Origin: an uncultured Ignavibacteriales bacterium
GTDB taxonomy: Bacteria; Zixibacteria; MSB-5A5; GN15; FEB-12
Assembly: GCA_964540105.1 (NCBI GenBank)
Contig: CAZILL010000001.1
Location: 1,034,063-1,098,062, forward strand
Length of the DNA stretch: 64,000 nt
Reading direction: 5' to 3'
Made by a program: the position numbers and the translations under genes. Every line of letters begins with the position of its first letter. The stretch's first letter is position 1. The notes beneath the pieces are model-generated. The model searched no databases and was not told the DNA's origin. It was given only the letters and a program-made list of their open reading frames with translations. Shown piece after piece: positions 51,629 to 63,669 of this stretch.

Positions 51629-52025
51629 ACGACAATCAAACCTTTCGTGGGGCGGATAAGTTTCCGCCTCGTTAGAAACTCCGCATCTGAGTCATTGATC
51701 AAACCATTGACGGGAAGATCATCCAAAAGAAACCCGGGTTCGACAATTGCCGCCCGGGTCAATGCAGATTCTAACAAGAATAACATGGAATGTTGAATTC
51801 TACAAGCCCTTTCTTGGACTTCTATGGAGAATGTCGGTCGTGGAGTCGGCCCCGCCGGAAGCAAGAGGTGAGTTGGCAGCAGATTGCCCTGCATTGACTT
51901 ACCAGTAGGAGTTGACGTCGTGAAGAGGATCAGCCTTTCAGTTTTTGTCGTTGACTTTCACTATCTATGATCGCAATTTGCTTAGAAACTACGAACCAGC
52001 AAAACCTGATATCGATGTAACCAAT

Positions 52026-53087
52026 ATGGGCAAACCAGCGGCTCGGATGGGAGATACAACAGTCCACGGCGGGACCATAGTGGTTGGGGCGCCGACGGTC
52101 CTGATCGGCGGCATGATGGCGGCTCGCGTGGGGGACATGCATGTCTGCCCCATGCTCAATCCCGGAGTGCCGCCACCACCCCACGTGGGAGGACCGATTA
52201 TGCCGCCCGGTGTTCCGACAGTCCTGATCTGTGGAACTCCGGCAGCCTGTGTCGGAGACATGGTCACCTGTGCCGGACCGCCTGACACGATCGCGCCTCC
52301 CGGTTGTCCGACCGTCATGATTGGAAGTGGCGGCGGCGGGGGCGGTGGAGCGGGCGCTGGCAGTGGTGGTCTTGACGTGGGACAGGGAGATAAGTCAAAA
52401 AGCTCCGAGCCGCCCAAAGGGCATTTCCTTGACGTCAGATTTGTCGACAAGGCGGGATTGCCAGTTGGCGGTGTCGAGTACGTGATCAAAGACCCAACAG
52501 GCGCCGTGACCACCGGCACCCTGTCGGGTCAACTGCGCAAAGGGGGAGTGCCCGAAGGGAACCATGAGATCATTCTGAAAGGGATCACGAAGGCGGAATG
52601 GTCGGTCAAGTCGGCTCGGGTCGGCGATACGGTGAAGCTCAAGGCGGAAACATCGGGAATCGATGACGGCGAAAAGGGGAGCTTCGACATCTTTATCAGG
52701 GAGTCGCGCTTCGCGCATACACTCTTGAAGACCATCGAGACCACAGTGCAGGGGGATAAGGTAGAGGCCGAATGGGAACTGCAAGTCGACGAAAAGTACC
52801 TCAACCTGCAGCGCGACAAACTTCAGAAAGGGGGTTATTCTTCCCCCACATTCTATTTCGTGGTCAAGACTCCCTACGGCGTTCGCCGCTCAGCCACGCT
52901 CGAGTATAAGGATTGGATCGAGCTGGAATATAAGAATGCCGAGGGGAAGCCGATGGCCAATAAAGAATACAAGCTCTTTCTCCCCAACGGGGAAGTGCGC
53001 AAAGGAAAGCTCGATGGCAACGGTTATGCCAAGATCAACAACGTTCCCCCCGGCCTGATCAAGGTGGTTGTGGATCCCCGGAAATAG
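52026..53087 (+). CDS. PAAR-domain spike-tip protein with a Gly linker and a roughly 240-aa C-terminal extension
   Basis: There are three PAAR motifs (KPAARMGD, MMAARVGD and TPAACVGD), each followed by a ...PTVLIGG/PTVLICG/PTVMIGS strand. A G-rich linker (GSGGGGGGGAGAGSGG) follows. The extension ends in short beta-rich segments, for example YKLFLPNGEVRKGKLDGNGYAKINNVPPG. I preferred the start at MGKPAAR (52026) over the TTG at 51945. Confidence 0.85.
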   Translation: MGKPAARMGDTTVHGGTIVVGAPTVLIGGMMAARVGDMHVCPMLNPGVPPPPHVGGPIMPPGVPTVLICGTPAACVGDMVTCAGPPDTIAPPGCPTVMIGSGGGGGGGAGAGSGGLDVGQGDKSKSSEPPKGHFLDVRFVDKAGLPVGGVEYVIKDPTGAVTTGTLSGQLRKGGVPEGNHEIILKGITKAEWSVKSARVGDTVKLKAETSGIDDGEKGSFDIFIRESRFAHTLLKTIETTVQGDKVEAEWELQVDEKYLNLQRDKLQKGGYSSPTFYFVVKTPYGVRRSATLEYKDWIELEYKNAEGKPMANKEYKLFLPNGEVRKGKLDGNGYAKINNVPPGLIKVVVDPRK

Positions 53088-53117: not shown

Positions 53118-56100
53118 ATGACCTTGCCGCCATCCAAAGTGAAGTTCGCCGTGACTTCAAAGGGAGCCCTGCCTCCGACGCATCAGAAATTCGAGGTGCA
53201 GCAGGAACGAACTGTGGTCCATATTCTCGAAATGGAAGACGTGCTGTTCCACCACGACAGCGCGGTCATGATGCCCGAGAATCCGGAGGGAACCTCTTCC
53301 ACACAAGGAGGGGGCGCCACCCCTGAGCAGACGAAGATCAGCGGCGTCAAAGCGCTGGCGCTTGTGTTTAAGCAGTTCGAGTTCAATCCAAAGCAGAAGA
53401 TCATCATCGCCGGTCACACCGATACCTCCGGCGGTGCGACCTACAATTTCAAGCTTTCGGACCTGCGCTCGAAGAATGTTCTCTATCTATTGATCGGTTC
53501 GCAGAACGACTGGGCGAAGATCTGCCACGAGAAGCAGAAGATTGAAGACCACAAGCAGATTCTGACCTGGGTGTTCAAGAAACGTCACTGGCCCTGTAAT
53601 CCCGGGTCAATCGATAACAATTGGGATAGTCCGCTCGAACAGGCGCTGACGGCCTTCGTCAACTACTATAACATGGAGTACGCCGACAAGAAGAAAGTGG
53701 CTCGTCTCGACGACAACATGGTCACAATCGTGAAAGCGGACGGCCAGAAGCGCTGGCCCGTCCAGCTTTGGGAAGCGGTATATAATCTGTATAACGACGA
53801 ATTGTGCGAGGTCCTTGCGGACACGCCGGAACAGCTGGACAAGCGCCGCCTTGACACCCTTAGGTTCGTCGAAGACTCCAAGCCCTATGTGGCGTGCGGT
53901 GAGTCCTTTCCGATTCAGGCCAAGGACAAGAGCGACTATCGTTCCCAGACCAATCGCCGCGTCGAGATACGCTTCTTCGATGAGGGAGAAGCGCCGGCGC
54001 TCGACTGCCCCAAGGATGTCAGCGCTGTTCACAAGGAGAAAGATTGCCCGCTCTATCACCCTGATCTCTACGACCCGAAGTATATCTCCCCAAGCGATCT
54101 CTATGCGGTCATGTACCATGTCTGCTTTCGATTCTATGATCGGATCGCCAAGAAGCTTCGAGATGTCCCGAGAGGAATCACGATCAAGGCTTTCGAGAAC
54201 GATACAGTTCCCGTCGACATCGTGCAGGAAGAGGTCGTCAAATCGAATGACTCCTGCGTCTATGCCCTCAAACTGCAATTCAAGACAGCCCTCAACGACC
54301 CGAACCGAAAGAAGCTTCATTTTGAATTCACCACCGACAGCCAGTGGGTTTTCACTGACAGCGACAAAGTCGCCCCGACCGTTGTCACCAAGAAAGTGGA
54401 TGAAGTTAAGAAACTCGCTCTGCCGGACCGGTTCAAGTATTACGACCTGCCATTGCGCTGGTCATCGCGGAATTACTGGACACGCTATGACGGAGACATG
54501 GCCACGGGAGAACGATTTGAAAACGTACTCACAGTACAGAAGAAGCTCAAGCCCTTTGGCGGGAATGTCACTGCCCCCGACACGCCCTTGATCTTCTGCC
54601 TGGACGACCTCGTACTTCTTGATGTCAAGGATGGCACTCAGAACATATATGACTGCGACCATATCCACCCCAACTGCGATGTTGTCGCTGTCGACAAGGG
54701 GAAACCGCTCTCGGAGAAGTCGCGCGTGAAGATTTTCTTCGTCGATCAGACCAAGGGACTGCTGAATCTGTATCAGCCCGATGCAACCAAGCCGATGTCA
54801 AGCCGCATTCCGTTCAAAGTCAACCTGCTGCCGACGAAGGCCGACGACTCAGCTAACGCCAGGATTGTCTTCTTCCGGGACGGTTTCTATACAATCGGCG
54901 ACAAGCGAGCTGTGGCCGACGCCTCCTACGATCCGGCGAAACATGTTCTTGGGGCGCGGGCAGCAGTCAGAAACGACACCGACTTTCATCTCCATTGGCC
55001 GATGGGATACAATCACACCGAGTTCGGCTCAACCGGTGATTACGATCTGCATTATTTCCATCACCAGCATCTTGACGGCAAACATCCGGTCTCGTACACC
55101 ATCTCCTATGTGTCGATCAGTTTCATGATTGACTCGAGGAGACAGCCCGCGAATCCTCCGGCTCCTGCCGCCCCCATTAATCCCAAACCTTCGAAGGCCG
55201 ATGTCAAGCAGTTCGTCGATGAATTCGTCTACGACGCTGTCCGTCATTGGAACAAGAAGCAATACTTCCTCGAAGAAAAACCGGTGACGGAGACCTCGGT
55301 CGTCATTCGCCCCTTCTACTTTTTCGATGAACGCGAGACCTTTGTCGTCCCCGATCCGCAGCCGGACAACATCGACTTCGACACCAGACCCGACCCCGCT
55401 CATCCGGCTGTCTCGAATTTCACGGAACTGTTCTCAAACGTCAAAGCCCCGTCCATTCTCAAAGCGCGCCAAGATGCGCTCGGGGGAAAGTCAAAGTTCC
55501 TGGCGCTGGTGTGTCGTGATGAAAACGGACACTGGGGACCCGCGTATCAGTGGGCGATCCGCACCGAAGGGTATCTCTACTCATTGTTCAAACTCAACAA
55601 GTCGGGAGGTACTGACCAGAACGACGTCTTCAATCCCAAGGTACCCGTCACCGAACACGGGGACTCTTTCGGGGCGCACACGATGGCTCATGAACTGGGG
55701 CATGCTACAGGACAGCCCGATGAGTATGTCAAGACGCTCTACAAGCCGGACCCCAACGACAACTATGCGTCCCCGGATTTCGACCAATTCATGATCCAGT
55801 TATCGATGCCGGAGAACGTGACCTCAATGATGTTCCATAATGGTGCGCCTCGCTTGCACCATTTATGGTATCCGATGCACCAAATAATGGAAGCGACCAA
55901 AGCGGCCCCGCTGAAAACGCTCCTTCCCGACAAGACTTTTGTGGCTCGCCTGAAACGGGACACCTGGGATATCACCTACACGCGTTCGCTGACGGCCGTC
56001 GGTCCCTCGACCCGTCCCGCCGACATGGCTCTGCCAATGGCTCAAACGGCACAGTTTGAAGTCGCCCACTCGCCGCTCAAACGCCTGAATCTGGCGCTCT

Positions 56101-56651
56101 ACGATGTGGGGAAAGACGAATCGTCAATCAAGTACTTCCACCCCAACCAGGACGCCGCGCCAAGCCCTATTCAGTATCAGGCTGTGCTGGTTGTTCGATT
56201 GCTGCTGAGCTGTCAATTCACTCACGGCGCCTGGACCGGCAATCAACAGGCCGTTCGCGTGTTCCGGCTTCAACAACAATGGGAGTCATACGAGACCCCC
56301 TCAAACCCACCAGCCGGCAAGGGTTACTTTCGATTGGTGGGCGGATCCGGTGAGATCAAGAACATTTTCGTGCATTTTATGGCCGGCTTTCTCCCTTCGA
56401 ATTCCACGAGCGCCGCCTTGGCCAACAACAACTACGCCCTTGACTTCCATCACGCCAACGCGCCTGCGACCGGGACGAGAATCCCGAACACGGGCGGTTC
56501 CGTCATTATCTATGACAATGTAACGGCGGACGAATTTGTGCGCTATGCGCTGAACATAATCAATCCGGCGGCGCCGCTGGGTCAAATGAGCTATCTTAAG
56601 ACATGGACCGACGCCCGCCTGGGCGATTCCTATACTCTGGAGCAGTTCTGA
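53118..56651 (+). CDS. Leaderless 1177-aa protein: interrupted OmpA-like peptidoglycan-binding domain plus C-terminal HExxHxxGxxD zinc-metallopeptidase motif (candidate T6SS cargo effector)
   Basis: The OmpA_C blocks VLFHHDSAVMMPE, IIIAGHTDTSGGATYNFKLSDLRSKNV and RSQTNRRVEIRFF are separated by an insert of about 130 aa. That insert contains PGSIDNNWDSPLEQALTAFVNYYN, which resembles PG_binding_1. HTMAHELGHATGQPDEY lies at nt 55689-55727. There is no signal peptide or TM segment. Confidence 0.7.
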   Translation: MTLPPSKVKFAVTSKGALPPTHQKFEVQQERTVVHILEMEDVLFHHDSAVMMPENPEGTSSTQGGGATPEQTKISGVKALALVFKQFEFNPKQKIIIAGHTDTSGGATYNFKLSDLRSKNVLYLLIGSQNDWAKICHEKQKIEDHKQILTWVFKKRHWPCNPGSIDNNWDSPLEQALTAFVNYYNMEYADKKKVARLDDNMVTIVKADGQKRWPVQLWEAVYNLYNDELCEVLADTPEQLDKRRLDTLRFVEDSKPYVACGESFPIQAKDKSDYRSQTNRRVEIRFFDEGEAPALDCPKDVSAVHKEKDCPLYHPDLYDPKYISPSDLYAVMYHVCFRFYDRIAKKLRDVPRGITIKAFENDTVPVDIVQEEVVKSNDSCVYALKLQFKTALNDPNRKKLHFEFTTDSQWVFTDSDKVAPTVVTKKVDEVKKLALPDRFKYYDLPLRWSSRNYWTRYDGDMATGERFENVLTVQKKLKPFGGNVTAPDTPLIFCLDDLVLLDVKDGTQNIYDCDHIHPNCDVVAVDKGKPLSEKSRVKIFFVDQTKGLLNLYQPDATKPMSSRIPFKVNLLPTKADDSANARIVFFRDGFYTIGDKRAVADASYDPAKHVLGARAAVRNDTDFHLHWPMGYNHTEFGSTGDYDLHYFHHQHLDGKHPVSYTISYVSISFMIDSRRQPANPPAPAAPINPKPSKADVKQFVDEFVYDAVRHWNKKQYFLEEKPVTETSVVIRPFYFFDERETFVVPDPQPDNIDFDTRPDPAHPAVSNFTELFSNVKAPSILKARQDALGGKSKFLALVCRDENGHWGPAYQWAIRTEGYLYSLFKLNKSGGTDQNDVFNPKVPVTEHGDSFGAHTMAHELGHATGQPDEYVKTLYKPDPNDNYASPDFDQFMIQLSMPENVTSMMFHNGAPRLHHLWYPMHQIMEATKAAPLKTLLPDKTFVARLKRDTWDITYTRSLTAVGPSTRPADMALPMAQTAQFEVAHSPLKRLNLALYDVGKDESSIKYFHPNQDAAPSPIQYQAVLVVRLLLSCQFTHGAWTGNQQAVRVFRLQQQWESYETPSNPPAGKGYFRLVGGSGEIKNIFVHFMAGFLPSNSTSAALANNNYALDFHHANAPATGTRIPNTGGSVIIYDNVTADEFVRYALNIINPAAPLGQMSYLKTWTDARLGDSYTLEQF

Positions 56652-56657
56652 AAAGAG

Positions 56658-57860
56658 ATGATGCACGCAAAGCGATGGCTGCTGTTGTTTGGAGTGGCGC
56701 TGATGCCCGCAGCTTCATGCCATTCGGGCAAACAGGAGGTAACCGTGGCTAACCCCGTCTTACTTAACACAACCTTGTATGGCGATCGCCAGAATAGCTC
56801 CTCGCTTCCCGTCGACGGCCGACCGGACGGCGAAGCGGTCTGGGAGAAGCCGTCGATCCTGGCCGATCAGCCGCGCCCGGCTCTTCATTTGGCGATTGCC
56901 GATTCACTTCTCCTGGTATCGTACGGGGGAGTGATCGACGCTCGTCGGCTCGACAACGGTGAGCCGATCTGGCGCCGCCAGGTAGGTGGAAACGCACTCT
57001 TTGATCTGAGGCCAGAAGGGCTCGTGACCCTCGATCCTGGCGGCTTCTATCAACTCATCGCCATGAACCAGAAACTGACAGAACCGATCTCTTTGCCGTT
57101 TCTCTCATCAAAGGCAATTCTCCACTATAGCCGCCGTCTTGGGGATGAAATGCTTTATTGCTACGAGAGTATCCCTACGCCCACCAACAGCCCGGGCGAT
57201 GAATTCGGCGGCCCCAACTTCTCTCTGTATCGTTTCAATCTCAAAACCGATGATTTCGCGTGGCAATTCCGGCGACCTGAGAATGTTGTCACAGTCATAG
57301 AATCACCTGATGGCGCGCAGGTTGGGGTAGCAACCGGCCAGAATCTGTATCTACTCCCTGCTGAGGCTCGCTCAGACAGCGCAGTCTCGACGATCAGCTT
57401 CACACGTCTGGTTTCCTGTTCATGCGACCACGCCGCACGGATTCTCGCAGTCGTGGAGTTCCCGCAGGAAGAAGGTGGGCTCACCCTGCAGGCAATCAAC
57501 GCCAAGCACGAAGTGGAGTGGAAATTACCTCTTGGTGAGACGGTCCCGTCCCTGCAGCCGCCATCCGTCGGTCCCGGGGATGCCATCTACTTGATAGTAG
57601 ATGCCAAATTGCTGAGCGTAAGCGCTGGGGCAATCACGTGGACAGCGCCTATTCCGGGTAACGCCAACGAAGCTCGACTGACCGTGCTGAAAGATGGCTC
57701 GGTCCTCTGTGCCGCAGGAAGAACCCTGCTGCACATTTCATCACGAGGCGACATCCAGATGAACAAGCCGCTCAAAGAGGCGGCAACCTGTCGACCGATC
57801 ATGGACTCTCGCGGTCGAGTGATTGTCGCGGGACTGAACAGTGTAATCTGTATTGAGTGA
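56658..57860 (+). CDS. Lipoprotein with a BamB/PQQ-like beta-propeller appearance (candidate immunity protein)
   Basis: A signal peptide plus lipobox-like MPAASC is present. Repeated roughly 40-aa strand-rich units have W/G patterns (GEPIWRRQVGG, DFAWQF, EVEWKLPLG and ITWTAPIPG). The function is contextual inference. Confidence 0.55.
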   Translation: MMHAKRWLLLFGVALMPAASCHSGKQEVTVANPVLLNTTLYGDRQNSSSLPVDGRPDGEAVWEKPSILADQPRPALHLAIADSLLLVSYGGVIDARRLDNGEPIWRRQVGGNALFDLRPEGLVTLDPGGFYQLIAMNQKLTEPISLPFLSSKAILHYSRRLGDEMLYCYESIPTPTNSPGDEFGGPNFSLYRFNLKTDDFAWQFRRPENVVTVIESPDGAQVGVATGQNLYLLPAEARSDSAVSTISFTRLVSCSCDHAARILAVVEFPQEEGGLTLQAINAKHEVEWKLPLGETVPSLQPPSVGPGDAIYLIVDAKLLSVSAGAITWTAPIPGNANEARLTVLKDGSVLCAAGRTLLHISSRGDIQMNKPLKEAATCRPIMDSRGRVIVAGLNSVICIE

Positions 57861-58309
57861 GGATTCAAGATATGGCGCAAACGACCACCATGCCCACTTT
57901 CTCTCTCCTCCCTCCCAATGGTTGGGAGGATCAGACTGTCTATACGTTTAGGGGTCCCGACGACAGCGGGCATCAGCACTTTGTGACCTTGACCATCGAC
58001 CCCTCACCGGGCTCCGATGATGTCGCTGAATTCGCCCGAGTGCGGATCGATGCCACCCTCACCACTCTGCAGGGAGCTGAAACCCTCAAAGACGAGCCGA
58101 AAGAGCTTCCGAACGGTAATCCGGCTCATGAGTGTGTCTATAAGTGGATACCGGTTGACGGGACGGTGCGGTTCGTGAAGATTGTCTTTCTGTTGATTGG
58201 CGGTCGCGGGTACACATTCTCGGGGACTTTCTCCAGAAAGACCATCAAGACCATTGCCCTCGAGATGGATCAGATGGTGAACAGCTTCACTCCAACGCTT
58301 TCCAAATGA
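57857..58309 (+). CDS. DUF1795 (DcrB/Eag-type effector chaperone family)-like protein
   Basis: PTFSLLPPNGWEDQTVYTFRGP...FVTLTIDP...L..F...RIDATLTTLQG...YTFSGTF fits the DUF1795 F-x-LP-x-GW-x-D-x-T/S-V opening and size (about 145 aa). The GTG at 57857 overlaps the upstream stop; an alternative ATG lies at 57872. Confidence 0.6.
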   Translation: MRIQDMAQTTTMPTFSLLPPNGWEDQTVYTFRGPDDSGHQHFVTLTIDPSPGSDDVAEFARVRIDATLTTLQGAETLKDEPKELPNGNPAHECVYKWIPVDGTVRFVKIVFLLIGGRGYTFSGTFSRKTIKTIALEMDQMVNSFTPTLSK

Positions 58310-58325
58310 GTGAACGAAGATAGCC

Positions 58326-59192
58326 ATGGAACTGAAATTCTCCAAAGCCACTGACACGCCGCATAAGATCAAACTGGAATCGGACCTGATCGAAACCAGC
58401 TGGGCGAGTGGCGTCGCATATATGGGACTGCCGGCCGCATTTGTCGTTCGGACCTCCTTTGTCGGCAATGGCGCATCGGTCGAAGTCACGGGTAAGTCCG
58501 ATAAGGGGAAGAAGTGCGGTAAAGTCAAGGGTGAGATTTCCAACAACGCCTTCATGGGCGCTCTGGATATTCCCGACAATCTTGACCCAAAGGACAAGGT
58601 CTATTTCGAAGTGAAGCTCCCCAAGCATGGCCTGAACGGGGATTCGGACCTCATCCCGGTCAAGCCTGGTGTGCTCGTGACGAACATGAAGTGGAGCGCC
58701 AAAGAGGCGCGGCGTGGAGAGATTCTCACCCTTTCGGCCGACGTCCGTGGGGCTGCCGACGATACCGAGGTTCTGGTCACGATATACGAGTTTGATCGGG
58801 ACAGTATCCACGACAAGATTGCCGAGCTGAAGGCGGTGGTGAAGAACCAGCAGATCAGGTTGGACTGGGAGTATCAGTACTTCGAGGACACCGACGAAAT
58901 CCCGTCCGACGCCGAGCTGCAGCGATACGGTCGCAGCTACAACCCGCCGGAGTACTTTTTCACGGTGAAAGTGGAGAAGCAGGAATTCGGCAAGAAGCAA
59001 CAGGACTCCGGCCTGCTGGAGTTCAAAGACTGGATCGAGATTGAGGCTATTGATGACAGCGGACAGCCGATCAAGAATGCCAAATACAAAGTAACCCTCC
59101 CCGATGGAACTGAGCGAGAAGGTAGTCTCGATCAAAACGGACGGGCGCGCCTGGAGGATATTCCTCCCGGTGAATTCACCGTGGATCTCTGA
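58326..59192 (+). CDS. Hypothetical protein paralogous to the C-terminal extension of the PAAR protein (candidate adaptor)
   Basis: Residues about 122-288 align by eye with PAAR-protein residues about 217-380 (ORF-track numbering). Matching pairs are KWSAKEARRGEILTLSADVRG/EWSVKSARVGDTVKLKAETSG, RLDWEYQ/EAEWELQ, YFFTVKV/FYFVVKT, LEFKDWIEIE/LEYKDWIELE and KYKVTLPDGTEREGSLDQNGRA/EYKLFLPNGEVRKGKLDGNGYA. Confidence 0.6.
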   Translation: MELKFSKATDTPHKIKLESDLIETSWASGVAYMGLPAAFVVRTSFVGNGASVEVTGKSDKGKKCGKVKGEISNNAFMGALDIPDNLDPKDKVYFEVKLPKHGLNGDSDLIPVKPGVLVTNMKWSAKEARRGEILTLSADVRGAADDTEVLVTIYEFDRDSIHDKIAELKAVVKNQQIRLDWEYQYFEDTDEIPSDAELQRYGRSYNPPEYFFTVKVEKQEFGKKQQDSGLLEFKDWIEIEAIDDSGQPIKNAKYKVTLPDGTEREGSLDQNGRARLEDIPPGEFTVDL

Positions 59193-59369
59193 TGGATTTT
59201 ACGAATAGCTCGACGATTGGCGATTTGTGAATGATGCTCACAAGGGACGCTCATGTGTGATGGCAGCAGAGGCCGTGCCAGAGGCCGGAGCGGCGGGCGA
59301 ACCCGCGTAACGGTCGAACCGCAACTCGTGGAGCCAGCGGTCAGAGTGTCGCGCGTCTCCGTGCAGGAC

Positions 59370-60485
59370 ATGGCCGAGACGCATCATGTCGGCACACTCA
59401 CAAACACCTTTCATGGCGAGAATTTCAGCCAGGAAGAACAGCGCATCGCATTGGAGGCTAACGCTCTTTTCGAAGTCGCTCTCAACGTCCGAACCGTGAA
59501 TTACGTGACCGTTGTTCGACCACGCCGAGCGGGGGCAGCCGCCGCTGCCGGTGAGTTTATGCTCTTTAATGTCGTGCCCAACACCAATACCGGCACACTT
59601 GATATCTTCAAAATTGGCACCCCTCCGACCGCCCTCCCGAGTGACAACGACGTAGCGACCGTCACGCGGCGCTTGAATAGTTATGGAATCGCTTTCGACA
59701 ACGCCTGGCGAGACCAGGATAAGCGCGTCGCCTTGATGGCTCTCAACATATTGACCGATCAGGAACTTGAGCGTGTTCGGGGGCTTCACTTTCGGCGCAG
59801 AGGTACCGCGCCTCCTGAGGTTCATCAAAACGAATCTGAGCAAGAGGGGGGCGCCTATTGGGATAGCCAGCACACGGTGGACATATATAACCTCGGTATG
59901 GTTAATGGCGCGCTCATGTCGCTTGGCACGAATTCGACGAATCTCCTGCCGGGCTGTGCGCAGACAGTCCTGCATGAGGTAGGGCATGCTCTCGCGTTTG
60001 CCGAAGTCCGGCTCGCCGGCGAACGAAATCGTGAGGCACGGGCAAACCTCTTGAGGGAACGCGAGCGAATTTCTAATCGCTGGCCCGACTATTTCAGGGT
60101 CCGAAACCCGGATCCCGACCACTACGAGTATCAGTACGAGCAACCAAGCACGGTGCCGACCAGCGATCGGCCTGCCTATAGTTCTGACCTACAGAGCCTC
60201 AGGAGTGCAGAGAATGCCTTTTCAACAGCCAATCGCAGTTACACCGGCATGGACCAAAGCCACATGGCTGCAGATTTCCAGCGGATCCAGCGTCAGTTGG
60301 CTCCAGTGACTCCGTACAGCCGAACACGGCGCGCCAATATGGGGCGAGATGCCGAGCGCGTCCGGGCTGCATCGGAAGAGTTCCTGGCCGACAGCTTTGC
60401 CATATACCGATGGAATCCGGAGTGGCTTCGTGCCAATCGCCGAACCGTTTTTGACTTTTTCGACCAGAACCGTCATCTTCGATGA
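59370..60485 (+). CDS. Leaderless HExxH zinc-metallopeptidase-like protein (candidate second effector)
   Basis: TVLHEVGHALAFAE (HEVGH at nt 59973-59987) is present, with possible downstream ligand or stabilising Glu residues (EEFLADSFAIY). There is no signal peptide. I preferred the start at MAETHH (59370). The ORF-track start at 59253 adds an Arg/Gly-rich low-complexity leader. Confidence 0.55.
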   Translation: MAETHHVGTLTNTFHGENFSQEEQRIALEANALFEVALNVRTVNYVTVVRPRRAGAAAAAGEFMLFNVVPNTNTGTLDIFKIGTPPTALPSDNDVATVTRRLNSYGIAFDNAWRDQDKRVALMALNILTDQELERVRGLHFRRRGTAPPEVHQNESEQEGGAYWDSQHTVDIYNLGMVNGALMSLGTNSTNLLPGCAQTVLHEVGHALAFAEVRLAGERNREARANLLRERERISNRWPDYFRVRNPDPDHYEYQYEQPSTVPTSDRPAYSSDLQSLRSAENAFSTANRSYTGMDQSHMAADFQRIQRQLAPVTPYSRTRRANMGRDAERVRAASEEFLADSFAIYRWNPEWLRANRRTVFDFFDQNRHLR

Positions 60486-60647: not shown

Positions 60648-62105
60648 ATGGATATAGCTAATTACTCTTCCGACGCTCGCGCAGTGATCAAGAATGCCCG
60701 CGAAGTTGCGGCCAGCTTCCGGCACCCGGAAATCTACATCGAACATCTGCTCATGGCGACCATCCGCCATGAAGGCTCAGAAGTTGAGTCAATCCTCAAC
60801 CAGCTTGGCAAGAGCAAAGTGTTCGTCGAATCAATCATCGAAGAACATCTCAAATCTCAACCCTCCAAGATGTCAGCTCGTGACAATCTCACTATCGCGC
60901 CACCGGTGCAGGATGTGCTCATTCAGGCGATCGAGGAAAAGGCCAAGCTGTTCGATGCTCTCGTTGAACCACATCATATCTTCATCGCGATTCTCGACCC
61001 GAAATCGCATCTCTCCGGTTACATTCGCGAGAAAATCGACATTACGAAGGAAGATATCTATCGCGGCATCGCGGAAAGCAAGTCGGTGGCCGAAATCACG
61101 TCGAAAACGACCGTTGCTGGAGCCACGGGTGGTTCCGAAGCCACAGGAGAGGTGGCCGGAACCCTGCGCTATTGCATCGATCTGACCAACCAGGCGGCCG
61201 CCGGTGAGTTCGACGTGTGCGTGGGGCGCGAAAAGGAAGTTCAGCAGGTCATCCAGATTCTTCTTCGCCGCCGGAAAAACAGCCCGATCCTCGTCGGGGG
61301 AGCTGGTGTCGGGAAAACCGCCATTGTCGAAGGATTTGCGCGGGCGATCATCGATAAGAAAGTTCCCGCCGCCCTGTGTGATGCTAAAGTCATGGGGGTC
61401 GACATGGGGGCGTTGGTCGCTGGGGCCAAGTACAAAGGGGAATTCGAAGAGCGCTTCAAGAGTTTGGTCAGCGAAGTGGTCAAGACGGCGGGCAAGATCA
61501 TCCTGTTCATCGACGAAATCCACACCATCGTCGGCGCCGGTAACGGGGGAGGCGGCATGGACGCTGCTAATCTGCTCAAGCCCGCGCTGGCGCGCGGTCA
61601 GATTCGGCTGGTAGGCGCAACCACCGAAGAGGAATACATCAAGTACATCGAGAAGGACAAAGCCCTCGACCGGCGTTTTGAAAAGGTCAAGGTCGCTCCT
61701 CCGAATTACGATGAAGCTGTCCGTATTGTCAGCGGAGTCATTCCCAAGTACGAAACCCACCACAAGATTGTCTACTCCGCGGAAGCCATTACCGGATCGG
61801 TTCGTTACGCCCAGCGATACCTCAGCGAACGAAATCTCCCTGATATCGCGCTTGATATCATCGACGAAGCCGGGTCGGAGTTCAGCGTGAAAGAGGAGTT
61901 CGCCCGAGTAATCGTGCCGACGATCTCAACGCAGATCACGGAAATCGAGAAACTGGTTGCCGCGTGTGAAGGCAAGAGGGTGGCGACGGACAAGGAACCG
62001 TTTGACAAACTAAACATGGCCTACACCGAATTCACCCGCCTGGTTGACCGTCTTCAAGGTTACTGGGGACATCGTGCCGAAGTGGCGAAGGAGGCGAAGT
62101 CATGA
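60648..62105 (+). CDS. clpV: ClpV/ClpB-type AAA+ ATPase, N-terminal half (Clp_N domain, D1 ring, first part of middle domain)
   Basis: Clp_N repeats (ARAVIKNAREVAASFRHPEIYIEHLL) are present. D1 Walker A is GGAGVGKTAIVEG and Walker B is IILFIDEIHTIVGAG. KPALARGQIRLVGATT and a coiled-coil tail follow. It stops inside the middle domain. Confidence 0.85.
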   Translation: MDIANYSSDARAVIKNAREVAASFRHPEIYIEHLLMATIRHEGSEVESILNQLGKSKVFVESIIEEHLKSQPSKMSARDNLTIAPPVQDVLIQAIEEKAKLFDALVEPHHIFIAILDPKSHLSGYIREKIDITKEDIYRGIAESKSVAEITSKTTVAGATGGSEATGEVAGTLRYCIDLTNQAAAGEFDVCVGREKEVQQVIQILLRRRKNSPILVGGAGVGKTAIVEGFARAIIDKKVPAALCDAKVMGVDMGALVAGAKYKGEFEERFKSLVSEVVKTAGKIILFIDEIHTIVGAGNGGGGMDAANLLKPALARGQIRLVGATTEEEYIKYIEKDKALDRRFEKVKVAPPNYDEAVRIVSGVIPKYETHHKIVYSAEAITGSVRYAQRYLSERNLPDIALDIIDEAGSEFSVKEEFARVIVPTISTQITEIEKLVAACEGKRVATDKEPFDKLNMAYTEFTRLVDRLQGYWGHRAEVAKEAKS

Positions 62106-63208
62106 CCGCCGCTCCATTGGATTTCAAGGGTATCAAGCAGGACTTTGAACAGAGAATTGCCCAATTCAATCGACTGCGGGGGGTTGTTGAGAAGCTCGAG
62201 AAGAAGATCGAAGACGCGGACATCGCCGCCGTTGTCGCTCGCCGGACCGGCATCCCGCTTTCCAAGATGCTGACGGCCGAGAAAGATCGGCTGGTCAACA
62301 TGGAGTCGTTCCTGTCGGCCAAAATCATAGGTCAGGACAAAGCGATCAGCGCGATTGCCAATGCCGTCCGCAAAGCAAGAGCCGGACTGAAGATGCCGAA
62401 CCGACCCGTGGGGAGTTTCCTCTTCCTCGGTCCGACCGGTACCGGCAAGACGTATCTGCCGAAACTGCTCGCCGAATTCCTCTTCGACGATAAGAACGCG
62501 ATGGTACGCTTTGATATGTCCGAGTACATGGAAACCCATTCCGTCGCCAAGATGATCGGCGCTCCGCCCGGGTATGTCGGCTACGAAGCCGGGGGCATGC
62601 TGACCGAGGCCGTGCGCAAGAAGCCGTTCTCGATTGTCCTGTTCGACGAGGTCGAAAAGGCGCACCCCGACGTCTTCAATATACTGTTGCAGTTGCTTGA
62701 TGACGGCCGTCTTACGGACGGTCAGGGACGCACCGTCGATTTTTCCAACTGTCTGGTCGTCCTCACCTCGAATTATGCCGCCGACAAAATTCTCGACGCC
62801 GACCGTGAGGGGCGCGACCTCGACATGGATGAGGTTCGGGCGTTCCTCTTCACCAAGTTCCGCCCGGAACTGCTGAACCGTCTGAACGACATCATTATTT
62901 ATCACTCATTCAAGATGGAACAGATCGAGGTTATCGCCGGACTGGAATTCGATTCTCTGGTGAAACTGCTGAAAGATCAGAACATCAACGCCACCCTGAG
63001 CACCGAAGCGCGCAAGAAACTCGCCCGCGATGGCTACACGTTCGAACTGGGGGCGCGCCCCATTCAACGCATCATCGAGAAGGAGGTCATCAACAAGCTC
63101 TCGGTCGATATCATCACGGGAACTGTTGAACCGGGTGATCACGTTATGGTTGATATCGTAAACGACGCGTACGTGTTCACAAAGAAACCGAAAACGACCA
63201 TCGAGTAG
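62102..63208 (+). CDS. clpV: ClpV/ClpB-type AAA+ ATPase, C-terminal half (rest of middle domain, D2 ring, C-terminal domain)
   Basis: IAAVVARRTGIPLSKM and IIGQDKAISAIANAVRKARAGL are present. D2 Walker A is FLGPTGTGKTYL and Walker B is IVLFDEVEKAHPDVFN; sensor-2 is GARPIQR. The ATG overlaps the upstream stop as ATGA, and AAGGAGG ends 7 nt upstream of it. Confidence 0.85.
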   Translation: MTAAPLDFKGIKQDFEQRIAQFNRLRGVVEKLEKKIEDADIAAVVARRTGIPLSKMLTAEKDRLVNMESFLSAKIIGQDKAISAIANAVRKARAGLKMPNRPVGSFLFLGPTGTGKTYLPKLLAEFLFDDKNAMVRFDMSEYMETHSVAKMIGAPPGYVGYEAGGMLTEAVRKKPFSIVLFDEVEKAHPDVFNILLQLLDDGRLTDGQGRTVDFSNCLVVLTSNYAADKILDADREGRDLDMDEVRAFLFTKFRPELLNRLNDIIIYHSFKMEQIEVIAGLEFDSLVKLLKDQNINATLSTEARKKLARDGYTFELGARPIQRIIEKEVINKLSVDIITGTVEPGDHVMVDIVNDAYVFTKKPKTTIE

Positions 63209-63228
63209 ACATAAAACCGGAGGTAAGT

Positions 63229-63669
63229 ATGGGAAAATTTATGCTCGGCGCCTCGGAACGAATCCAGAAGGATGATTCAATACCCGTTGAACTCCTTCCC
63301 TCGAACAAGATCTTGTACGCCGCAAAACTCAACAGTGATCAGGACGCCGATGTCACTCCGACACGGTGCAACAACCTCAAAGACGTGTTTGAGAAATTCC
63401 GCCCAGAGTTTTCCGTAGAAATGGAAAATACGCAGGGGGAACAGGTGAACGCATCATTCGAAATTCGCGCAATGAAGGATTTCACCTCGAAAGAACTGAT
63501 CGAAAAGAACGACCATCTGTCCAAGACCTATTATGGCAAATCGATGATGGACGATCTCGAGACCCAGTTGAAGAAGAACAACGCTCTGAAGAAAACGCTT
63601 GAAGACAAGCAGAAGAAAGAAGCTCTCCTAAAGGTCGCCAAGTACTATATCGACCTGCTGAGCGAATAA
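63229..63669 (+). CDS. tssB: T6SS contractile sheath small subunit-like protein (TssB/VipA-like)
   Basis: It is 146 aa with GGAGGT 6 nt upstream. By-eye resemblances to VipA blocks are VELLPSNKILYAAKL (cf. ELPLKTLVVGDF), NLKDVFEKFRPEFSVEMEN and FEIRAMKDFTSKELIEKNDHL (cf. LNFKSLADFAPDAV). It lies between clpV and a probable tssC. Confidence 0.6.
   Translation: MGKFMLGASERIQKDDSIPVELLPSNKILYAAKLNSDQDADVTPTRCNNLKDVFEKFRPEFSVEMENTQGEQVNASFEIRAMKDFTSKELIEKNDHLSKTYYGKSMMDDLETQLKKNNALKKTLEDKQKKEALLKVAKYYIDLLSE

What the first reader, a model, noticed from the sequence alone, without database searches (positions are those of the whole stretch)
53118..56651. Leaderless 1177-aa chimera: OmpA-like domain split by an insert carrying a PG_binding_1-like motif, fused to a metzincin-style HExxHxxGxxD site
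The N-terminal 290 aa contain all the OmpA_C landmarks in order: VLFHHDSAVMMPE ... IIIAGHTDTSGGATYNFKLSDLRSKNV ... RSQTNRRVEIRFF. Between the second and third blocks is an insert of about 130 aa (about nt 53500-53880). It includes PGSIDNNWDSPLEQALTAFVNYYN, which resembles the G-x-DG-x-x-G-x-x-T-x-x-A-x-x-x-FQ core of PG_binding_1.

About 550 aa of unrecognisable sequence follow. Then comes HTMAHELGHATGQPDEY (H858, E859, H862, D868; nt 55689..55727). HExxHxxGxx(H/D) is the extended zinc site of metzincin-clan peptidases, and the Asp variant is known from snapalysin-type enzymes.

There is no signal peptide or TM segment despite the cell-wall-binding domains. This fits a protein that reaches a periplasm by injection. 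The gene sits directly after a PAAR gene and directly before a lipoprotein gene. A peptidoglycan-tethered metallopeptidase effector of this architecture is not something I can match to a described family.

Alternative reading: it could be a wall-anchoring accessory component, like the TagL/TagN-type OmpA-domain proteins of T6SS. In that case the HExxH site would be unexplained.
Basis: partly seen in the sequence, partly recalled or inferred. Interest (0 to 1): 0.65.

Follow-up and report, generated by a model that had tools for sequence, protein, structure and literature searches.

The report
Wall-binding metallopeptidase cargo of T6SS
This 1177-residue protein belongs to a large, undescribed family from uncultured bacteria that looks like a toxin carried on the tip of a bacterial injection machine (type VI secretion system), with modules that grip the victim's cell wall, a zinc protease, and a protective lipoprotein encoded next door.

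Summary
ORF 53118..56651 encodes a leaderless 1177-aa protein. Its OmpA-like peptidoglycan-binding domain is split by a helical insert of about 130 aa. That insert is a degenerate PG_binding_1 domain; distant relatives score as true PG_binding_1 at the same position. HExxHxxGxxD-x-Y and a downstream Met are invariant in the 28-sequence alignment of this domain.

It is not a one-off chimera. There are at least 272 protein clusters of full-length homologues in Zixibacteria, Ignavibacteria, Fibrobacterota and other MAGs, and none of the 120 inspected has a signal peptide or TM segment.

The gene almost always follows a PAAR gene with a prealbumin/transthyretin-like extension. It precedes a BamB-like beta-propeller, usually a lipoprotein. 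It lies inside T6SS clusters or in orphan PAAR modules, with 2-3 copies in some genomes.

Its C-terminal half and the propeller evolve much faster than the T6SS core. In related loci the same slot holds unrelated enzymes, for example an arginine deiminase followed by a HEAT-repeat lipoprotein.

Best reading (0.65): a PAAR-loaded, periplasm-acting, wall-tethered zinc peptidase effector with a propeller immunity protein. Membership of the metzincin clan is not shown at fold level. Secretion, toxicity and substrate are inferred. I rate it a new variant of a known kind, of moderate interest.

The parts
52026..53087 (+). PAAR protein with a C-terminal prealbumin/transthyretin-like extension (353 aa from the MGKPAAR start; the ORF listing gives a longer TTG ORF from 51945). 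Proposed spike tip that carries X.
   Evidence: Pfam PAAR_motif E 9e-22, with weak SpaA/CarboxypepD_reg hits at the C-terminus. Homologues start MGKPAARxGD. It lies directly upstream of X in most loci where the upstream DNA is held.
53118..56651 (+). X: leaderless 1177-aa protein, the finding itself.
   Evidence: AF2 model has mean pLDDT 90.4 and pTM 0.86.
53205..53498 (+). OmpA-like domain, first part (residues about 30-127). It includes GHTD (D102) and NFKLSDLR (R117), the positions that bind diaminopimelate in OmpA-like domains.
   Evidence: Pfam OmpA 78-126. PDB profile alignment to Pal and OmpA-like chains. D102 is invariant and R117 at least 90% conserved. Foldseek probability is 0.94-0.95 to OprF and PorE C-domains.
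53499..53885 (+). Helical insert (residues 128-256) nested in the OmpA-like domain. It is a degenerate PG_binding_1-like module.
   Evidence: Six helices in the model. Conserved DPGxIDDxWGxxTxxATxxF. Colinear with the true PG_binding_1 of L082, residues 140-206, E 9e-15. The window protein itself gets no Pfam hit.
53886..53987 (+). OmpA-like domain, second part (residues 257-290; CGESFP...NRRVEIRFF).
   Evidence: Second matched stretch 264-296 against OmpA-like chain 7rjj. C260, G261, S263, P265, R280, R281 and V282 are invariant.
53988..54062 (+). Short Cys/His-rich linker (residues 291-315; C297, H305, C310 conserved). Role unknown: a disulfide or a small metal site.
   Evidence: H305 and C310 are invariant and C297 at least 90% conserved. 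Not resolved further.
54063..55187 (+). Beta-rich middle region (residues 316-690), with no recognisable family. It is shared with relatives that lack the OmpA module.
   Evidence: Secondary structure of the model. No meaningful Pfam hit. BLASTP to P0175, P0184 and others covers X 334-741.
55188..55937 (+). Putative zinc-metallopeptidase domain (residues 691-940).
   Evidence: G790, H858, E859, H862, G865, D868, Y870 and M905 are invariant in the 28-sequence domain alignment. All 46 PDB sequence hits with E up to 10 are zinc metallopeptidases, the best being MMP-10 at 0.026, serralysin at 0.05 and snapalysin at 0.18. Reprolysin_5 matches 6 of 42 members below threshold.
55689..55727 (+). HELGHATGQPDEY: extended zinc-binding motif HExxHxxGxxD-x-Y (H858..Y870).
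55830..55832 (+). M905, conserved Met 37 residues after D868. Candidate Met-turn.
   Evidence: Invariant in A2 and at least 90% conserved in A1 and A3. The turn geometry was not checked.
55938..56648 (+). C-terminal beta/alpha region (residues 941-1177). This is the fastest-evolving part of X.
   Evidence: Detected by tblastn in only 22 of 84 loci, and in 1 of the 16 loci that share a 74%-identical TssB.
56658..57860 (+). BamB/PQQ-like beta-propeller with signal peptide and lipobox (...MPAASC). Proposed immunity protein.
   Evidence: The family profile hits PQQ-type propellers (3hxj E 2e-34) and BamB (E 4e-10). PQQ_2 matches 22 of 27 members. A signal peptide or lipobox is present in most loci. 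It is the least conserved gene of the module, at 0.21 bits per residue.
57857..58309 (+). DcrB-family (PF08786) protein. From my own knowledge this family was formerly DUF1795, the family of Eag-type T6SS effector chaperones. Constant member of the module.
   Evidence: Pfam DcrB E 2.8e-7. Present in 61 of 84 loci. Retained where the cargo differs, in L096, L097 and L104.
58326..59192 (+). 288-aa protein paralogous to the C-terminal extension of the PAAR protein (called TTR288 here). Possible second adaptor.
   Evidence: BLASTP of PAAR 187-347 against this protein 118-286 gives 33% identity, E 9e-28. It is conserved in the module.
59253..60485 (+). 410-aa leaderless protein with HEVGH. Possible second metallopeptidase cargo. 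Not analysed in depth.
   Evidence: Weak NCBIfam NF038122 metalloprotease hit. Homologues follow TTR288 in L059-L063.
60648..63669 (+). T6SS core genes that fix the context: ClpV split into two genes (60648..62105 and 62102..63208) and TssB (63229..63669). TssC, TssD/Hcp and VgrG follow beyond the window.
   Evidence: Pfam hits. The extension of the same contig shows TssC PF17541, TssD PF17642 and VgrG.

Best explanation
X is the cargo effector of a PAAR-tipped type VI secretion spike. It is made without an export signal and is proposed to be loaded onto the PAAR protein encoded just upstream, probably through that protein's prealbumin/transthyretin-like extension and with help from the DcrB-family and TTR288 proteins. 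The T6SS then fires it into the periplasm of a neighbouring Gram-negative cell. There, the N-terminal OmpA-like domain and the PG_binding_1-like module nested inside it hold the protein on the sacculus. The HExxHxxGxxD zinc peptidase domain then cuts a wall-associated substrate, either envelope proteins close to peptidoglycan or peptide stems. The producer and its kin are protected by the BamB-like beta-propeller lipoprotein encoded 6 nt downstream, which would bind the fast-evolving C-terminal half of X in the periplasm.

Shown here: the domain make-up, the motif conservation, the absence of export signals, the gene linkage, the periplasmic targeting of the partner, the pattern of evolutionary rates, and the exchangeability of the slot.

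Inferred: loading on PAAR, secretion, toxicity, immunity, substrate.
For: 1. **Linkage.**
   - PAAR with its extension lies directly upstream, and a protein of about 370-430 aa directly downstream, in most of 84 genome loci.
   - The arrangements seen are PAAR-X-propeller-DcrB-TTR288-ClpV-TssB-TssC-Hcp-VgrG, TssF-TssG-ClpV-VgrG-PAAR-X, or an orphan PAAR-X-propeller-DcrB module.
2. **No export signal.** None of the 120 homologues has a signal peptide or TM segment. Yet the protein has a wall-binding domain with D102 and R117 conserved.
3. **Periplasmic partner.** The downstream propeller has a signal peptide or lipobox in most loci.
4. **Rates in the 16 loci that share this T6SS type.**
   - Bits per residue: TssB 1.54, ClpV 1.4-1.5, X N-module 0.86, X middle 0.48, X catalytic 0.29, propeller 0.17.
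   - The X C-terminus is detectable in only 1 of the 16.
   - This is the pattern expected of an effector-immunity pair with a conserved targeting end.
5. **Copy number.** Seven MAGs carry 2-3 copies. About 30 modules have no T6SS core gene within 10 kb.
6. **Exchangeable slot.**
   - With a PAAR-extension profile as bait, L096 has an 819-aa arginine deiminase (E 1e-56) plus a HEAT-repeat lipoprotein in place of X and the propeller.
   - L104 has other genes in that slot.
   - DcrB and TTR288 are kept in both.
7. **Active site under selection.** H858, E859, H862, D868 and Y870 are invariant, and M905 is at least 90% conserved.
8. **N-module reused.** The N-module is fused to a different enzyme (Metallophos) in L078.
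Against: - Nothing here shows secretion, toxicity or immunity.
- X-like genes occupy the slot in nearly all related T6SS loci across several phyla. That is unusually stable for a cargo toxin and would also fit a lineage-specific accessory.
- In about 10 loci the first downstream gene has no signal peptide (L036, L042, L043, L047, L050, L076, L068, L071, L075). In the loci listed (L036, L042, L050, L071) a second, signal-bearing gene follows.
- Foldseek gave no peptidase match better than probability 0.28 for the full model, and none for the isolated domain. Catalytic competence therefore rests on motifs.
- From my own knowledge, Eag-type chaperones normally bind transmembrane helices. Neither X nor the PAAR protein has any.
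Confidence: 0.65

Rival explanations
1. X is a lineage-specific accessory or structural part of this T6SS type rather than a toxin. It would be a spike-associated enzyme needed for assembly or for piercing the wall, with the BamB-like lipoprotein as its envelope partner. The wall-binding modules would then anchor or guide the machine.
For: - X-like genes sit in the same slot of main T6SS clusters across Zixibacteria, Ignavibacteria, Fibrobacterota, Aminicenantes and others.
- Even the variants without the OmpA module sit there.
- The clusters read here showed no TssJ/L/M or TssN-R hits, so the envelope complex of this lineage is unknown.
- Spike accessory complexes are known in other T6SSs (PMC13373197).
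Against: - No family member has a signal peptide or TM segment, so X cannot reach the producer's own periplasm by Sec.
- Some genomes carry 2-3 copies, and many modules are orphan.
- The C-terminal half of X and the propeller evolve several times faster than the core genes.
- The slot holds unrelated enzymes in L096 and L104, while PAAR, DcrB and TTR288 stay.
- The TssL-type OmpA model scores 14.9 bits against a cut-off of 139.8.
Confidence: 0.17
2. X is delivered by the T6SS, but the peptidase is not an antibacterial toxin. It could act on eukaryotic or extracellular proteins, or it could process X itself or a partner such as the 410-aa HEVGH protein. The propeller would then be a chaperone or regulator rather than an immunity protein.
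For: - Proteases with the metzincin motif usually cut proteins rather than peptidoglycan (my own knowledge).
- In some loci the first downstream gene lacks a signal peptide.
- A second HExxH protein is encoded in the module.
Against: - Two wall-binding modules specific for bacterial peptidoglycan are conserved, including the Asp and Arg at the diaminopimelate-contacting positions.
- Most partners are lipoproteins or carry signal peptides.
- The closest functional precedent, VgrG2b C-ter/Tpe1, is a periplasm-acting antibacterial toxin (PMC6899460).
Confidence: 0.1
3. X is an ordinary envelope or cytoplasmic protein with no link to the T6SS, and the neighbourhood is coincidental.
For: Public annotations call members only 'OmpA family protein' or 'hypothetical protein'. 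Three distant relatives that share only the N-module (L078, L082, L083) have no PAAR gene upstream.
Against: PAAR lies immediately upstream in most of the loci with enough sequence, across several phyla. Genes in the module are separated by 30 nt or 6 nt or overlap by 4 nt. No family member has an export signal.
Confidence: 0.03

Closest known systems
Tpe/Tpi family: VgrG2b C-terminal metallopeptidase with PA0261 (P. aeruginosa) and Tpe1-Tpi1 (A. baylyi) (PMC6899460)
   Same: Both are T6SS-delivered HExxH zinc metallopeptidases that act in the target periplasm. Both are neutralised by a periplasmic immunity protein (soluble, lipoprotein or membrane-anchored) encoded next to the toxin, and both are encoded with spike genes.
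   Different: - No sequence relationship was detected: the 46 PDB sequence matches of the domain profile up to E 10 are all other zinc metallopeptidases.
- X is a separate cargo protein next to PAAR, not a VgrG fusion.
- X carries nested OmpA-like and PG_binding_1-like wall-binding modules and about 600 further residues of unknown fold.
- Its partner is a BamB-like propeller of about 400 aa.
Metzincin-clan peptidases with an Asp third ligand (snapalysin, M7) and other metzincins (MMPs M10, serralysins, adamalysins M12)
   Same: Extended motif HExxHxxGxxD, a conserved Met downstream, and a helix carrying HExxH preceded by a beta-sheet in the model. Only zinc metallopeptidases, mostly of these families, appear in the sub-threshold PDB sequence hits.
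   Different: No hit reaches significance (best E 0.026). Foldseek finds no metzincin for the isolated domain, and only MMP-20 at probability 0.28 for the full model. The domain is about 250 aa with long insertions. No pro-peptide or signal peptide is present.
OmpA-like peptidoglycan-binding domains (Pal, OmpA C-domain, OprF, PorE, MotB; PF00691)
   Same: Pfam hit above threshold, fold match, and conserved GHTD...LSxLR...NRRVE with the Asp and Arg that contact diaminopimelate.
   Different: The domain is interrupted by a helical module of about 130 aa. It sits at the N-terminus of a leaderless 1177-aa protein rather than on a Sec-exported envelope protein.
T6SS wall-anchoring accessories (TagL, TagN, TagP, long-form TssL with OmpA extension)
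   Same: An OmpA-like domain encoded in a T6SS locus.
   Different: From my own knowledge, those proteins are membrane-anchored or exported and have no enzyme domain. X has no TM segment or signal, scores far below the TssL-type OmpA model (14.9 against 139.8 bits), and sits in an exchangeable cargo slot.
Wall-degrading spike-associated T6SS effectors such as V. cholerae VgrG3 with TsiV3, and Tse1 with Tsi1
   Same: A spike-linked enzyme aimed at the target cell wall with a periplasmic immunity protein. This comparison rests on my own knowledge.
   Different: Those are muramidases or amidases of known families. X has a zincin motif, its substrate is unknown, and it carries dedicated wall-binding modules.

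Membership tests
OmpA-like domain (PF00691) | Sequence score above the curated Pfam threshold | tested here: met
   28.4 bits against a cut-off of 27.2 for residues 78-126. 41 of 42 family members match at E up to 0.05.
OmpA-like domain (PF00691) | Beta-alpha-beta-alpha-beta-beta fold shared with solved OmpA-like domains | tested here: met
   Foldseek gives OprF C-domain probability 0.94, PorE 0.95 and Pal 0.93, with TM-score by target length of 0.33-0.51. Alignments of 257-282 columns span the insert. E-values are only 0.03-0.3 because the domain is split.
OmpA-like domain (PF00691) | Conserved Asp and Arg that bind diaminopimelate (GHxD ... LSxxRA) | tested here: met
   D102 is invariant and R117 at least 90% conserved. 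They are 15 residues apart and align to GHAD...GERRA of Pal. Binding itself cannot be tested here.
PG_binding_1 (PF01471) | Sequence score above the Pfam threshold in this protein | tested here: not met
   No PG_binding_1 hit for residues 128-262 even at E up to 10. Only 2 of 42 family members match, the best at E 0.0013.
PG_binding_1 (PF01471) | Homology of the insert to a bona fide PG_binding_1 domain | tested here: met
   L082 residues 140-206 score E 9e-15, and L083 scores E 5e-13. X 21-328 aligns colinearly with L082 22-312 at 38% identity, E 1e-70, which places X 141-213 on that domain.
Metzincin clan of zinc peptidases | Extended zinc motif HExxHxxGxx(H/D) | tested here: met
   HELGHATGQPD at 858-868. 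H858, E859, H862 and D868 are invariant and G865 at least 90% conserved in 81 sequences. The motif is present in about 110 of 120 homologues.
Metzincin clan of zinc peptidases | Met-turn below the zinc site | tested here: inconclusive
   M905 is conserved 37 residues after D868.
Metzincin clan of zinc peptidases | Catalytic-domain fold similar to solved metzincins | tested here: inconclusive
Metzincin clan of zinc peptidases | Significant profile similarity to a peptidase family (M7, M10, M12) | tested here: inconclusive
   All 46 PDB hits up to E 10 are zinc metallopeptidases, but the best is E 0.026. Reprolysin_5 matches 6 of 42 members, the best at 3.3e-4 and below the cut-off. The M6 domain model scores 20.7 bits against 110.8.
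T6SS cargo effector with adjacent immunity protein | Encoded next to vgrG/PAAR genes and lacking a Sec or Tat signal | tested here: met
T6SS cargo effector with adjacent immunity protein | Adjacent small or medium gene targeted to the compartment where the toxin acts | tested here: met
   The downstream propeller has a signal peptide or lipobox in most loci, with about 10 exceptions.
T6SS cargo effector with adjacent immunity protein | The cassette is exchangeable between related loci, and effector and immunity evolve faster than the apparatus | tested here: met
   Rate gradient. L096 has an arginine deiminase plus a HEAT-repeat lipoprotein, and L104 other genes, in the same slot.
T6SS cargo effector with adjacent immunity protein | T6SS-dependent secretion, toxicity and cognate protection | not testable with these tools
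   Needs experiments. All hosts are uncultured MAGs.
Tpe/Tpi (VgrG2b C-ter type) metallopeptidase effectors | Sequence homology to VgrG2b C-ter or Tpe1 | tested here: not met
   The 46 PDB sequence matches of profile A2 up to E 10 are all other zinc metallopeptidases, with no VgrG2b chain among them. Pfam and NCBIfam gave no such family.
T6SS wall-anchoring accessories (TagL / long TssL) | Membrane anchor or export signal placing the OmpA domain in the producer's periplasm, and a match to the type_VI_ompA model | tested here: not met
   No TM segment or signal in X or in 120 homologues. TIGR03350 scores 14.9 bits against a cut-off of 139.8.
T6SS-iii membrane complex TssN/O/P/Q/R | Transmembrane proteins or lipoprotein of the Bacteroidota complex (PMC10781749) | tested here: not met
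   X has no TM segment or lipobox. Its only Pfam hit is OmpA.

The most novel reading that the evidence does not exclude
X defines an undescribed, near-universal cargo family of a T6SS lineage found in FCB-group and neighbouring phyla. It would be the first 'wall-tethered' T6SS protease, held on the victim's sacculus by two nested peptidoglycan-binding modules. It would be loaded through a PAAR-extension/DcrB/TTR288 platform that also accepts unrelated cargos such as an arginine deiminase. That would make the platform a new effector-loading system, not just a new toxin.
Probability: 0.4. Interest if true: 0.65.

Novelty: new variant of a known kind. Interest (0 to 1): 0.55.

Why it matters
T6SS biology rests almost entirely on Proteobacteria and gut Bacteroidales. 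This locus gives a first look at the effector repertoire and loading logic of T6SSs in uncultured Zixibacteria, Ignavibacteria, Fibrobacterota and relatives.

If the reading is right, three things follow.
- It adds a large new effector family: at least 272 clusters at 90% identity, and 368 at 50% identity for the peptidase domain.
- It shows a new strategy, in which an injected enzyme is tethered to the victim's wall by nested OmpA-like and PG_binding_1-like modules.
- It points to a conserved PAAR-extension/DcrB/TTR288 platform with swappable cargos. That platform could be mined for more toxins and immunity proteins.

The BamB-like propeller would be a new class of protease-neutralising immunity protein.

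Tried and rejected
- **Foldseek, full model against PDB.** It gave only OmpA-like matches and one weak MMP-20 hit.
- **Foldseek, isolated peptidase domain against PDB.** Nothing.
- **Foldseek, full model against viral structures.** Nothing meaningful.
- **phmmer of the 51-residue motif region against PDB.** Uninformative.
- **Pfam on the middle region, the C-terminal region and the insert of this protein.** No significant family.
- **PADLOC.** Only MotB/ZorB-type OmpA matches, so there is no sign of a defence system.
- **Is X a T6SS-iii membrane-complex protein (TssN-R)?** Rejected. Those are TM proteins or lipoproteins, and X has no such features or hits.
- **Is X a TagL/TssL-type anchor?** Rejected.
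- **Are the roughly 900-aa relatives evolved VgrG fusions?** Rejected. They have no Pfam domains and share the middle, peptidase and C-terminal regions of X.
- **Literature searches.** No paper describes this family or a T6SS of Zixibacteria or Ignavibacteria in any detail.

Full report
**1. What is in the window**

ORF 53118..56651 (+) encodes a 1177-aa protein, called X here. The gene order is:
- a PAAR gene ending at 53087, 30 nt before X;
- X;
- a 400-aa gene starting 6 nt after the stop codon of X (56658..57860);
- a DcrB-family gene (57857..58309) that overlaps the previous gene by 4 nt;
- a 288-aa gene (58326..59192);
- a 410-aa gene with HEVGH (59253..60485);
- ClpV split into two genes (60648..62105 and 62102..63208);
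- TssB (63229..63669).

On a public copy of the same contig the cluster continues with TssC (PF17541), TssD/Hcp (PF17642) and VgrG. X therefore lies at the edge of a T6SS cluster. Upstream are housekeeping genes: typA/bipA, carA and carB.

**2.

- **OmpA-like domain.** Pfam finds an OmpA-like domain at residues 78-126, just above threshold.
- **Split.**
  - A profile built from 81 homologues matches solved OmpA-like domains in two stretches, 94-126 and 264-296. The domain is therefore split by about 130 residues.
  - The AlphaFold2 model (mean pLDDT 90.4, pTM 0.86) shows six helices between the two halves.
  - Foldseek alignments to OprF and PorE C-domains run across that insert, with probability 0.94-0.95.
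- **Peptidoglycan contacts.** From my own knowledge, the Asp of GHTD and the Arg of LSxLR contact diaminopimelate in OmpA-like domains. Here these are D102 (invariant) and R117 (at least 90% conserved).
- **The insert.**
  - It gets no Pfam hit in this protein.
  - The family consensus DPGxIDDxWGxxTxxATxxF resembles the PG_binding_1 core.
  - Two distant relatives, L082 and L083, carry a bona fide PG_binding_1 at exactly this place, with E 9e-15 and 5e-13.
  - X 21-328 aligns colinearly with L082 at 38% identity, E 1e-70.
  - The insert is therefore a degenerate PG_binding_1 nested in an OmpA-like domain.
- **Zinc motif.**
  - HELGHATGQPDEY is at 858-870 (nt 55689..55727).
  - H858, E859, H862, D868 and Y870 are invariant in 81 sequences.
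  - G865 and M905 are at least 90% conserved, and M905 is invariant in the 28-sequence domain alignment.
- **No export signal.** There is no signal peptide or TM segment in X or in any of the 120 homologues inspected.

**3. It is a family, not a one-off chimera**

- The protein search returned 272 clusters, nearly all 1080-1250 aa and matching over the full length at 31-54% identity.
- Species-representative genomes with the gene are all MAGs. They come from Zixibacteria, Ignavibacteria, Fibrobacterota (Chitinivibrionales, Chitinispirillaceae), Aminicenantes, Krumholzibacteriota, GN15, a few Desulfobacterota and others.
- A profile of the peptidase domain alone finds 368 clusters at 50% identity.
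- Some of these are proteins of about 860-1030 aa that lack the OmpA module but share the middle, peptidase and C-terminal regions of X. They too are leaderless.
- One such variant sits in the same slot: PAAR, variant, a 412-aa gene, DcrB, split ClpV, TssB, TssC, TssD, VgrG, TssE.
- Conversely, the N-module occurs on other proteins, for example fused to a Metallophos domain in L078.

**4. Is the C-terminal enzyme a metzincin?**

Evidence in favour:
- the extended motif with Asp as third ligand;
- the conserved Met;
- a predicted helix carrying HExxH, preceded by strands and followed by a long helix;
- every one of the 46 PDB sequence hits up to E 10 is a zinc metallopeptidase: MMPs, serralysins, snapalysin, adamalysin, ADAMTS-5, InhA, IgA protease and two Bacteroides peptidases;
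- Reprolysin_5 matches 6 of 42 members below threshold.

Evidence lacking:
- no hit is significant on its own (best E 0.026);
- Foldseek gives only MMP-20 at probability 0.28 for the full model, and nothing for the isolated domain;

I conclude that X is a zincin-type peptidase with metzincin-like signatures. Clan membership is not proven.

**5. Gene context points to a PAAR-borne cargo and an immunity protein**

- **Linkage.**
  - Across 84 genome loci, a PAAR protein of about 350-390 aa lies directly upstream wherever enough sequence is held.
  - A gene of about 370-430 aa lies directly downstream.
  - DcrB and the 288-aa gene are nearby.
- **Three arrangements.**
  - The window type.
  - TssF-TssG-ClpV-VgrG-PAAR-X.
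  - About 30 orphan PAAR-X-propeller-DcrB modules with no core gene within 10 kb.
- **Copy number.** Seven MAGs carry two or three copies.
- **The PAAR extension.** The C-terminal extension of the PAAR protein is paralogous to the 288-aa protein (E 9e-28). It has weak prealbumin/transthyretin-like hits. From my own knowledge, such domains serve as cargo adaptors on VgrG and PAAR proteins.
- **The downstream protein.** It is a BamB/PQQ-like beta-propeller: 3hxj E 2e-34, BamB E 4e-10, and PQQ_2 in 22 of 27 members. It carries a signal peptide or lipobox in most loci.
- **Rates.**
  - In the 16 loci that share a 74%-identical TssB, the bits per residue are 1.54 for TssB, 1.4-1.5 for ClpV, 0.86 for the X N-module, 0.48 for the middle, 0.29 for the peptidase domain and 0.17 for the propeller.
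  - The last 237 residues of X are detectable in only one of those loci.
  - A conserved targeting end, a variable business end and a still more variable partner are what effector-immunity pairs show.

**6. A direct test between 'cargo' and 'structural part'**

I searched metagenome contigs with a profile of the PAAR-extension protein and asked what follows it.
- Ten loci have an X-like gene, two of them the variant without the OmpA module.
- L096 instead has an 819-aa protein-arginine deiminase (PAD, E 1e-56) followed by a HEAT-repeat lipoprotein.
- L104 has VgrG, PAAR, then a 166-aa gene (weak PG_binding_1), a 396-aa gene and a HEAT-repeat gene.
- L097 goes straight to DcrB.
- In all three, DcrB and the TTR288 paralogue are retained.

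The slot occupied by X and the propeller is therefore an exchangeable cassette on a constant loading platform. This argues against X being an obligatory structural component.

**7. Mechanism proposed, with its status**

- **Shown:** the architecture, conserved wall-binding and zinc-site residues, lack of export signals, linkage to PAAR and the T6SS, periplasmic targeting of the partner, the rate pattern, and the exchangeable slot.
- **Inferred:**
  - X is loaded on the PAAR tip, fired into a neighbour's periplasm, and held on the sacculus by the nested OmpA-like and PG_binding_1-like modules.
  - There it cleaves a wall-associated substrate.
  - The propeller lipoprotein protects the producer.
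- **Substrate:** unknown.
  - Zincins with this motif usually cut proteins.
  - For the periplasm-acting T6SS metallopeptidase VgrG2b, no peptidoglycan hydrolase activity was found, and release of lipoproteins was suggested (PMC6899460).
  - I therefore favour envelope proteins near the wall over peptide stems, without evidence from this work.

**8. Unexplained points**

- **Stability of the slot.** X-like genes are unusually stable in this slot across phyla.
- **Partners without a signal peptide.** About ten loci have a first downstream gene with no signal peptide. In the loci listed (L036, L042, L050, L071) a signal-bearing gene follows.
- **The DcrB-family protein.** From my own knowledge, this family is known in T6SS biology for chaperoning transmembrane helices. 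Neither X nor the PAAR protein has any.
- **C160, C260, C297, H305 and C310.** These are conserved, and could form disulfides or a metal site.
- **The middle (316-690) and C-terminal (941-1177) regions.** They have no recognisable relatives.

**9. Comparison and novelty**

- **What it works like.** X most resembles the Tpe/Tpi pairs (VgrG2b C-ter with PA0261, Tpe1 with Tpi1), but no homology to them was detected.
- **What it is not.** It is neither a TagL/TssL-type anchor nor a TssN-R membrane-complex protein.
- **Prior description.** No Pfam, NCBIfam or PADLOC family describes it. No paper in the held library does either. Public annotations read 'hypothetical protein' or 'OmpA family protein'.
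- **Verdict.** I rate it a new variant of a known kind: a T6SS periplasm-acting effector with its immunity protein. The new features are the nested dual wall-binding module, a divergent zincin domain, a BamB-like immunity candidate and a PAAR-extension/DcrB/TTR288 platform. Interest is 0.55, and confidence in the effector reading is 0.65.

Noticed in passing
window 60648..62105 and 62102..63208: ClpV is encoded as two genes overlapping by 4 nt: Clp_N plus the first AAA domain (485 aa), and the second AAA domain plus ClpB_D2-small (368 aa). The same split is seen in L004, L086 and the other window-type loci, so it is a conserved feature and not a frameshift. Other loci of the family have a single 872-aa ClpV.
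   Followed up: partly
window 59253..60485: A 410-aa leaderless protein with HEVGH and a weak NF038122 metalloprotease hit follows the TTR288 gene. Homologues occupy the same position in L059-L063. It may be a second metallopeptidase cargo, paired with TTR288 as its adaptor.
   Followed up: no
window 58326..59192 and 52026..53087: The 288-aa protein is a paralogue of the C-terminal extension of the PAAR protein (33% identity, E 9e-28). It amounts to a free-standing copy of the presumed cargo-binding part.
   Followed up: partly
L096 1488..4959: In a related metagenome locus the slot after the PAAR-extension gene holds an 819-aa protein-arginine deiminase (PAD, E 1e-56; PAD_M E 6e-7) followed by a HEAT-repeat lipoprotein. 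This is a candidate T6SS deiminase effector with its immunity protein.
   Followed up: partly
L078 9899..14266; L082 8666..12628; L083 9449..13684: Three large leaderless proteins (1320-1455 aa) share only the OmpA/PG_binding_1 N-module with X and have no PAAR gene upstream. L078 carries a Metallophos domain instead of the HExxH domain. L082 and L083 have full-scoring PG_binding_1 domains.
   Followed up: partly
L086 10001..12736 (P0184) and P0175, P0186, P0197, P0204 and others: A sister group of about 860-1030 aa lacks the OmpA module but keeps the middle, peptidase and C-terminal regions. It has no Pfam domains at all. P0184 occupies the same PAAR-linked slot in a T6SS cluster.
   Followed up: partly
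window 51945..52047: The start of the PAAR gene is ambiguous. The ORF listing starts at TTG 51945 and a public gene call at 52047, but homologues begin MGKPAARxGD, which corresponds to ATG 52026.
   Followed up: yes
X residues 160, 260, 297, 305, 310 (nt 53595..54047): Four conserved cysteines and an invariant histidine lie in the N-module and the following linker (CPxxxxxxVHxxxxCP). They could form two disulfides or a small metal site.
   Followed up: no
L001 6121..9877; L003 15986..22255: The T6SS clusters of this lineage showed no TssJ/L/M or TssN-R hits in the stretches read. Unknown genes follow TssK (308, 740 and 187 aa). L003 also has an FHA-SLT protein, a PP2C phosphatase and a PG_binding_1 protein. 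The envelope complex of this T6SS type is unidentified.
   Followed up: no
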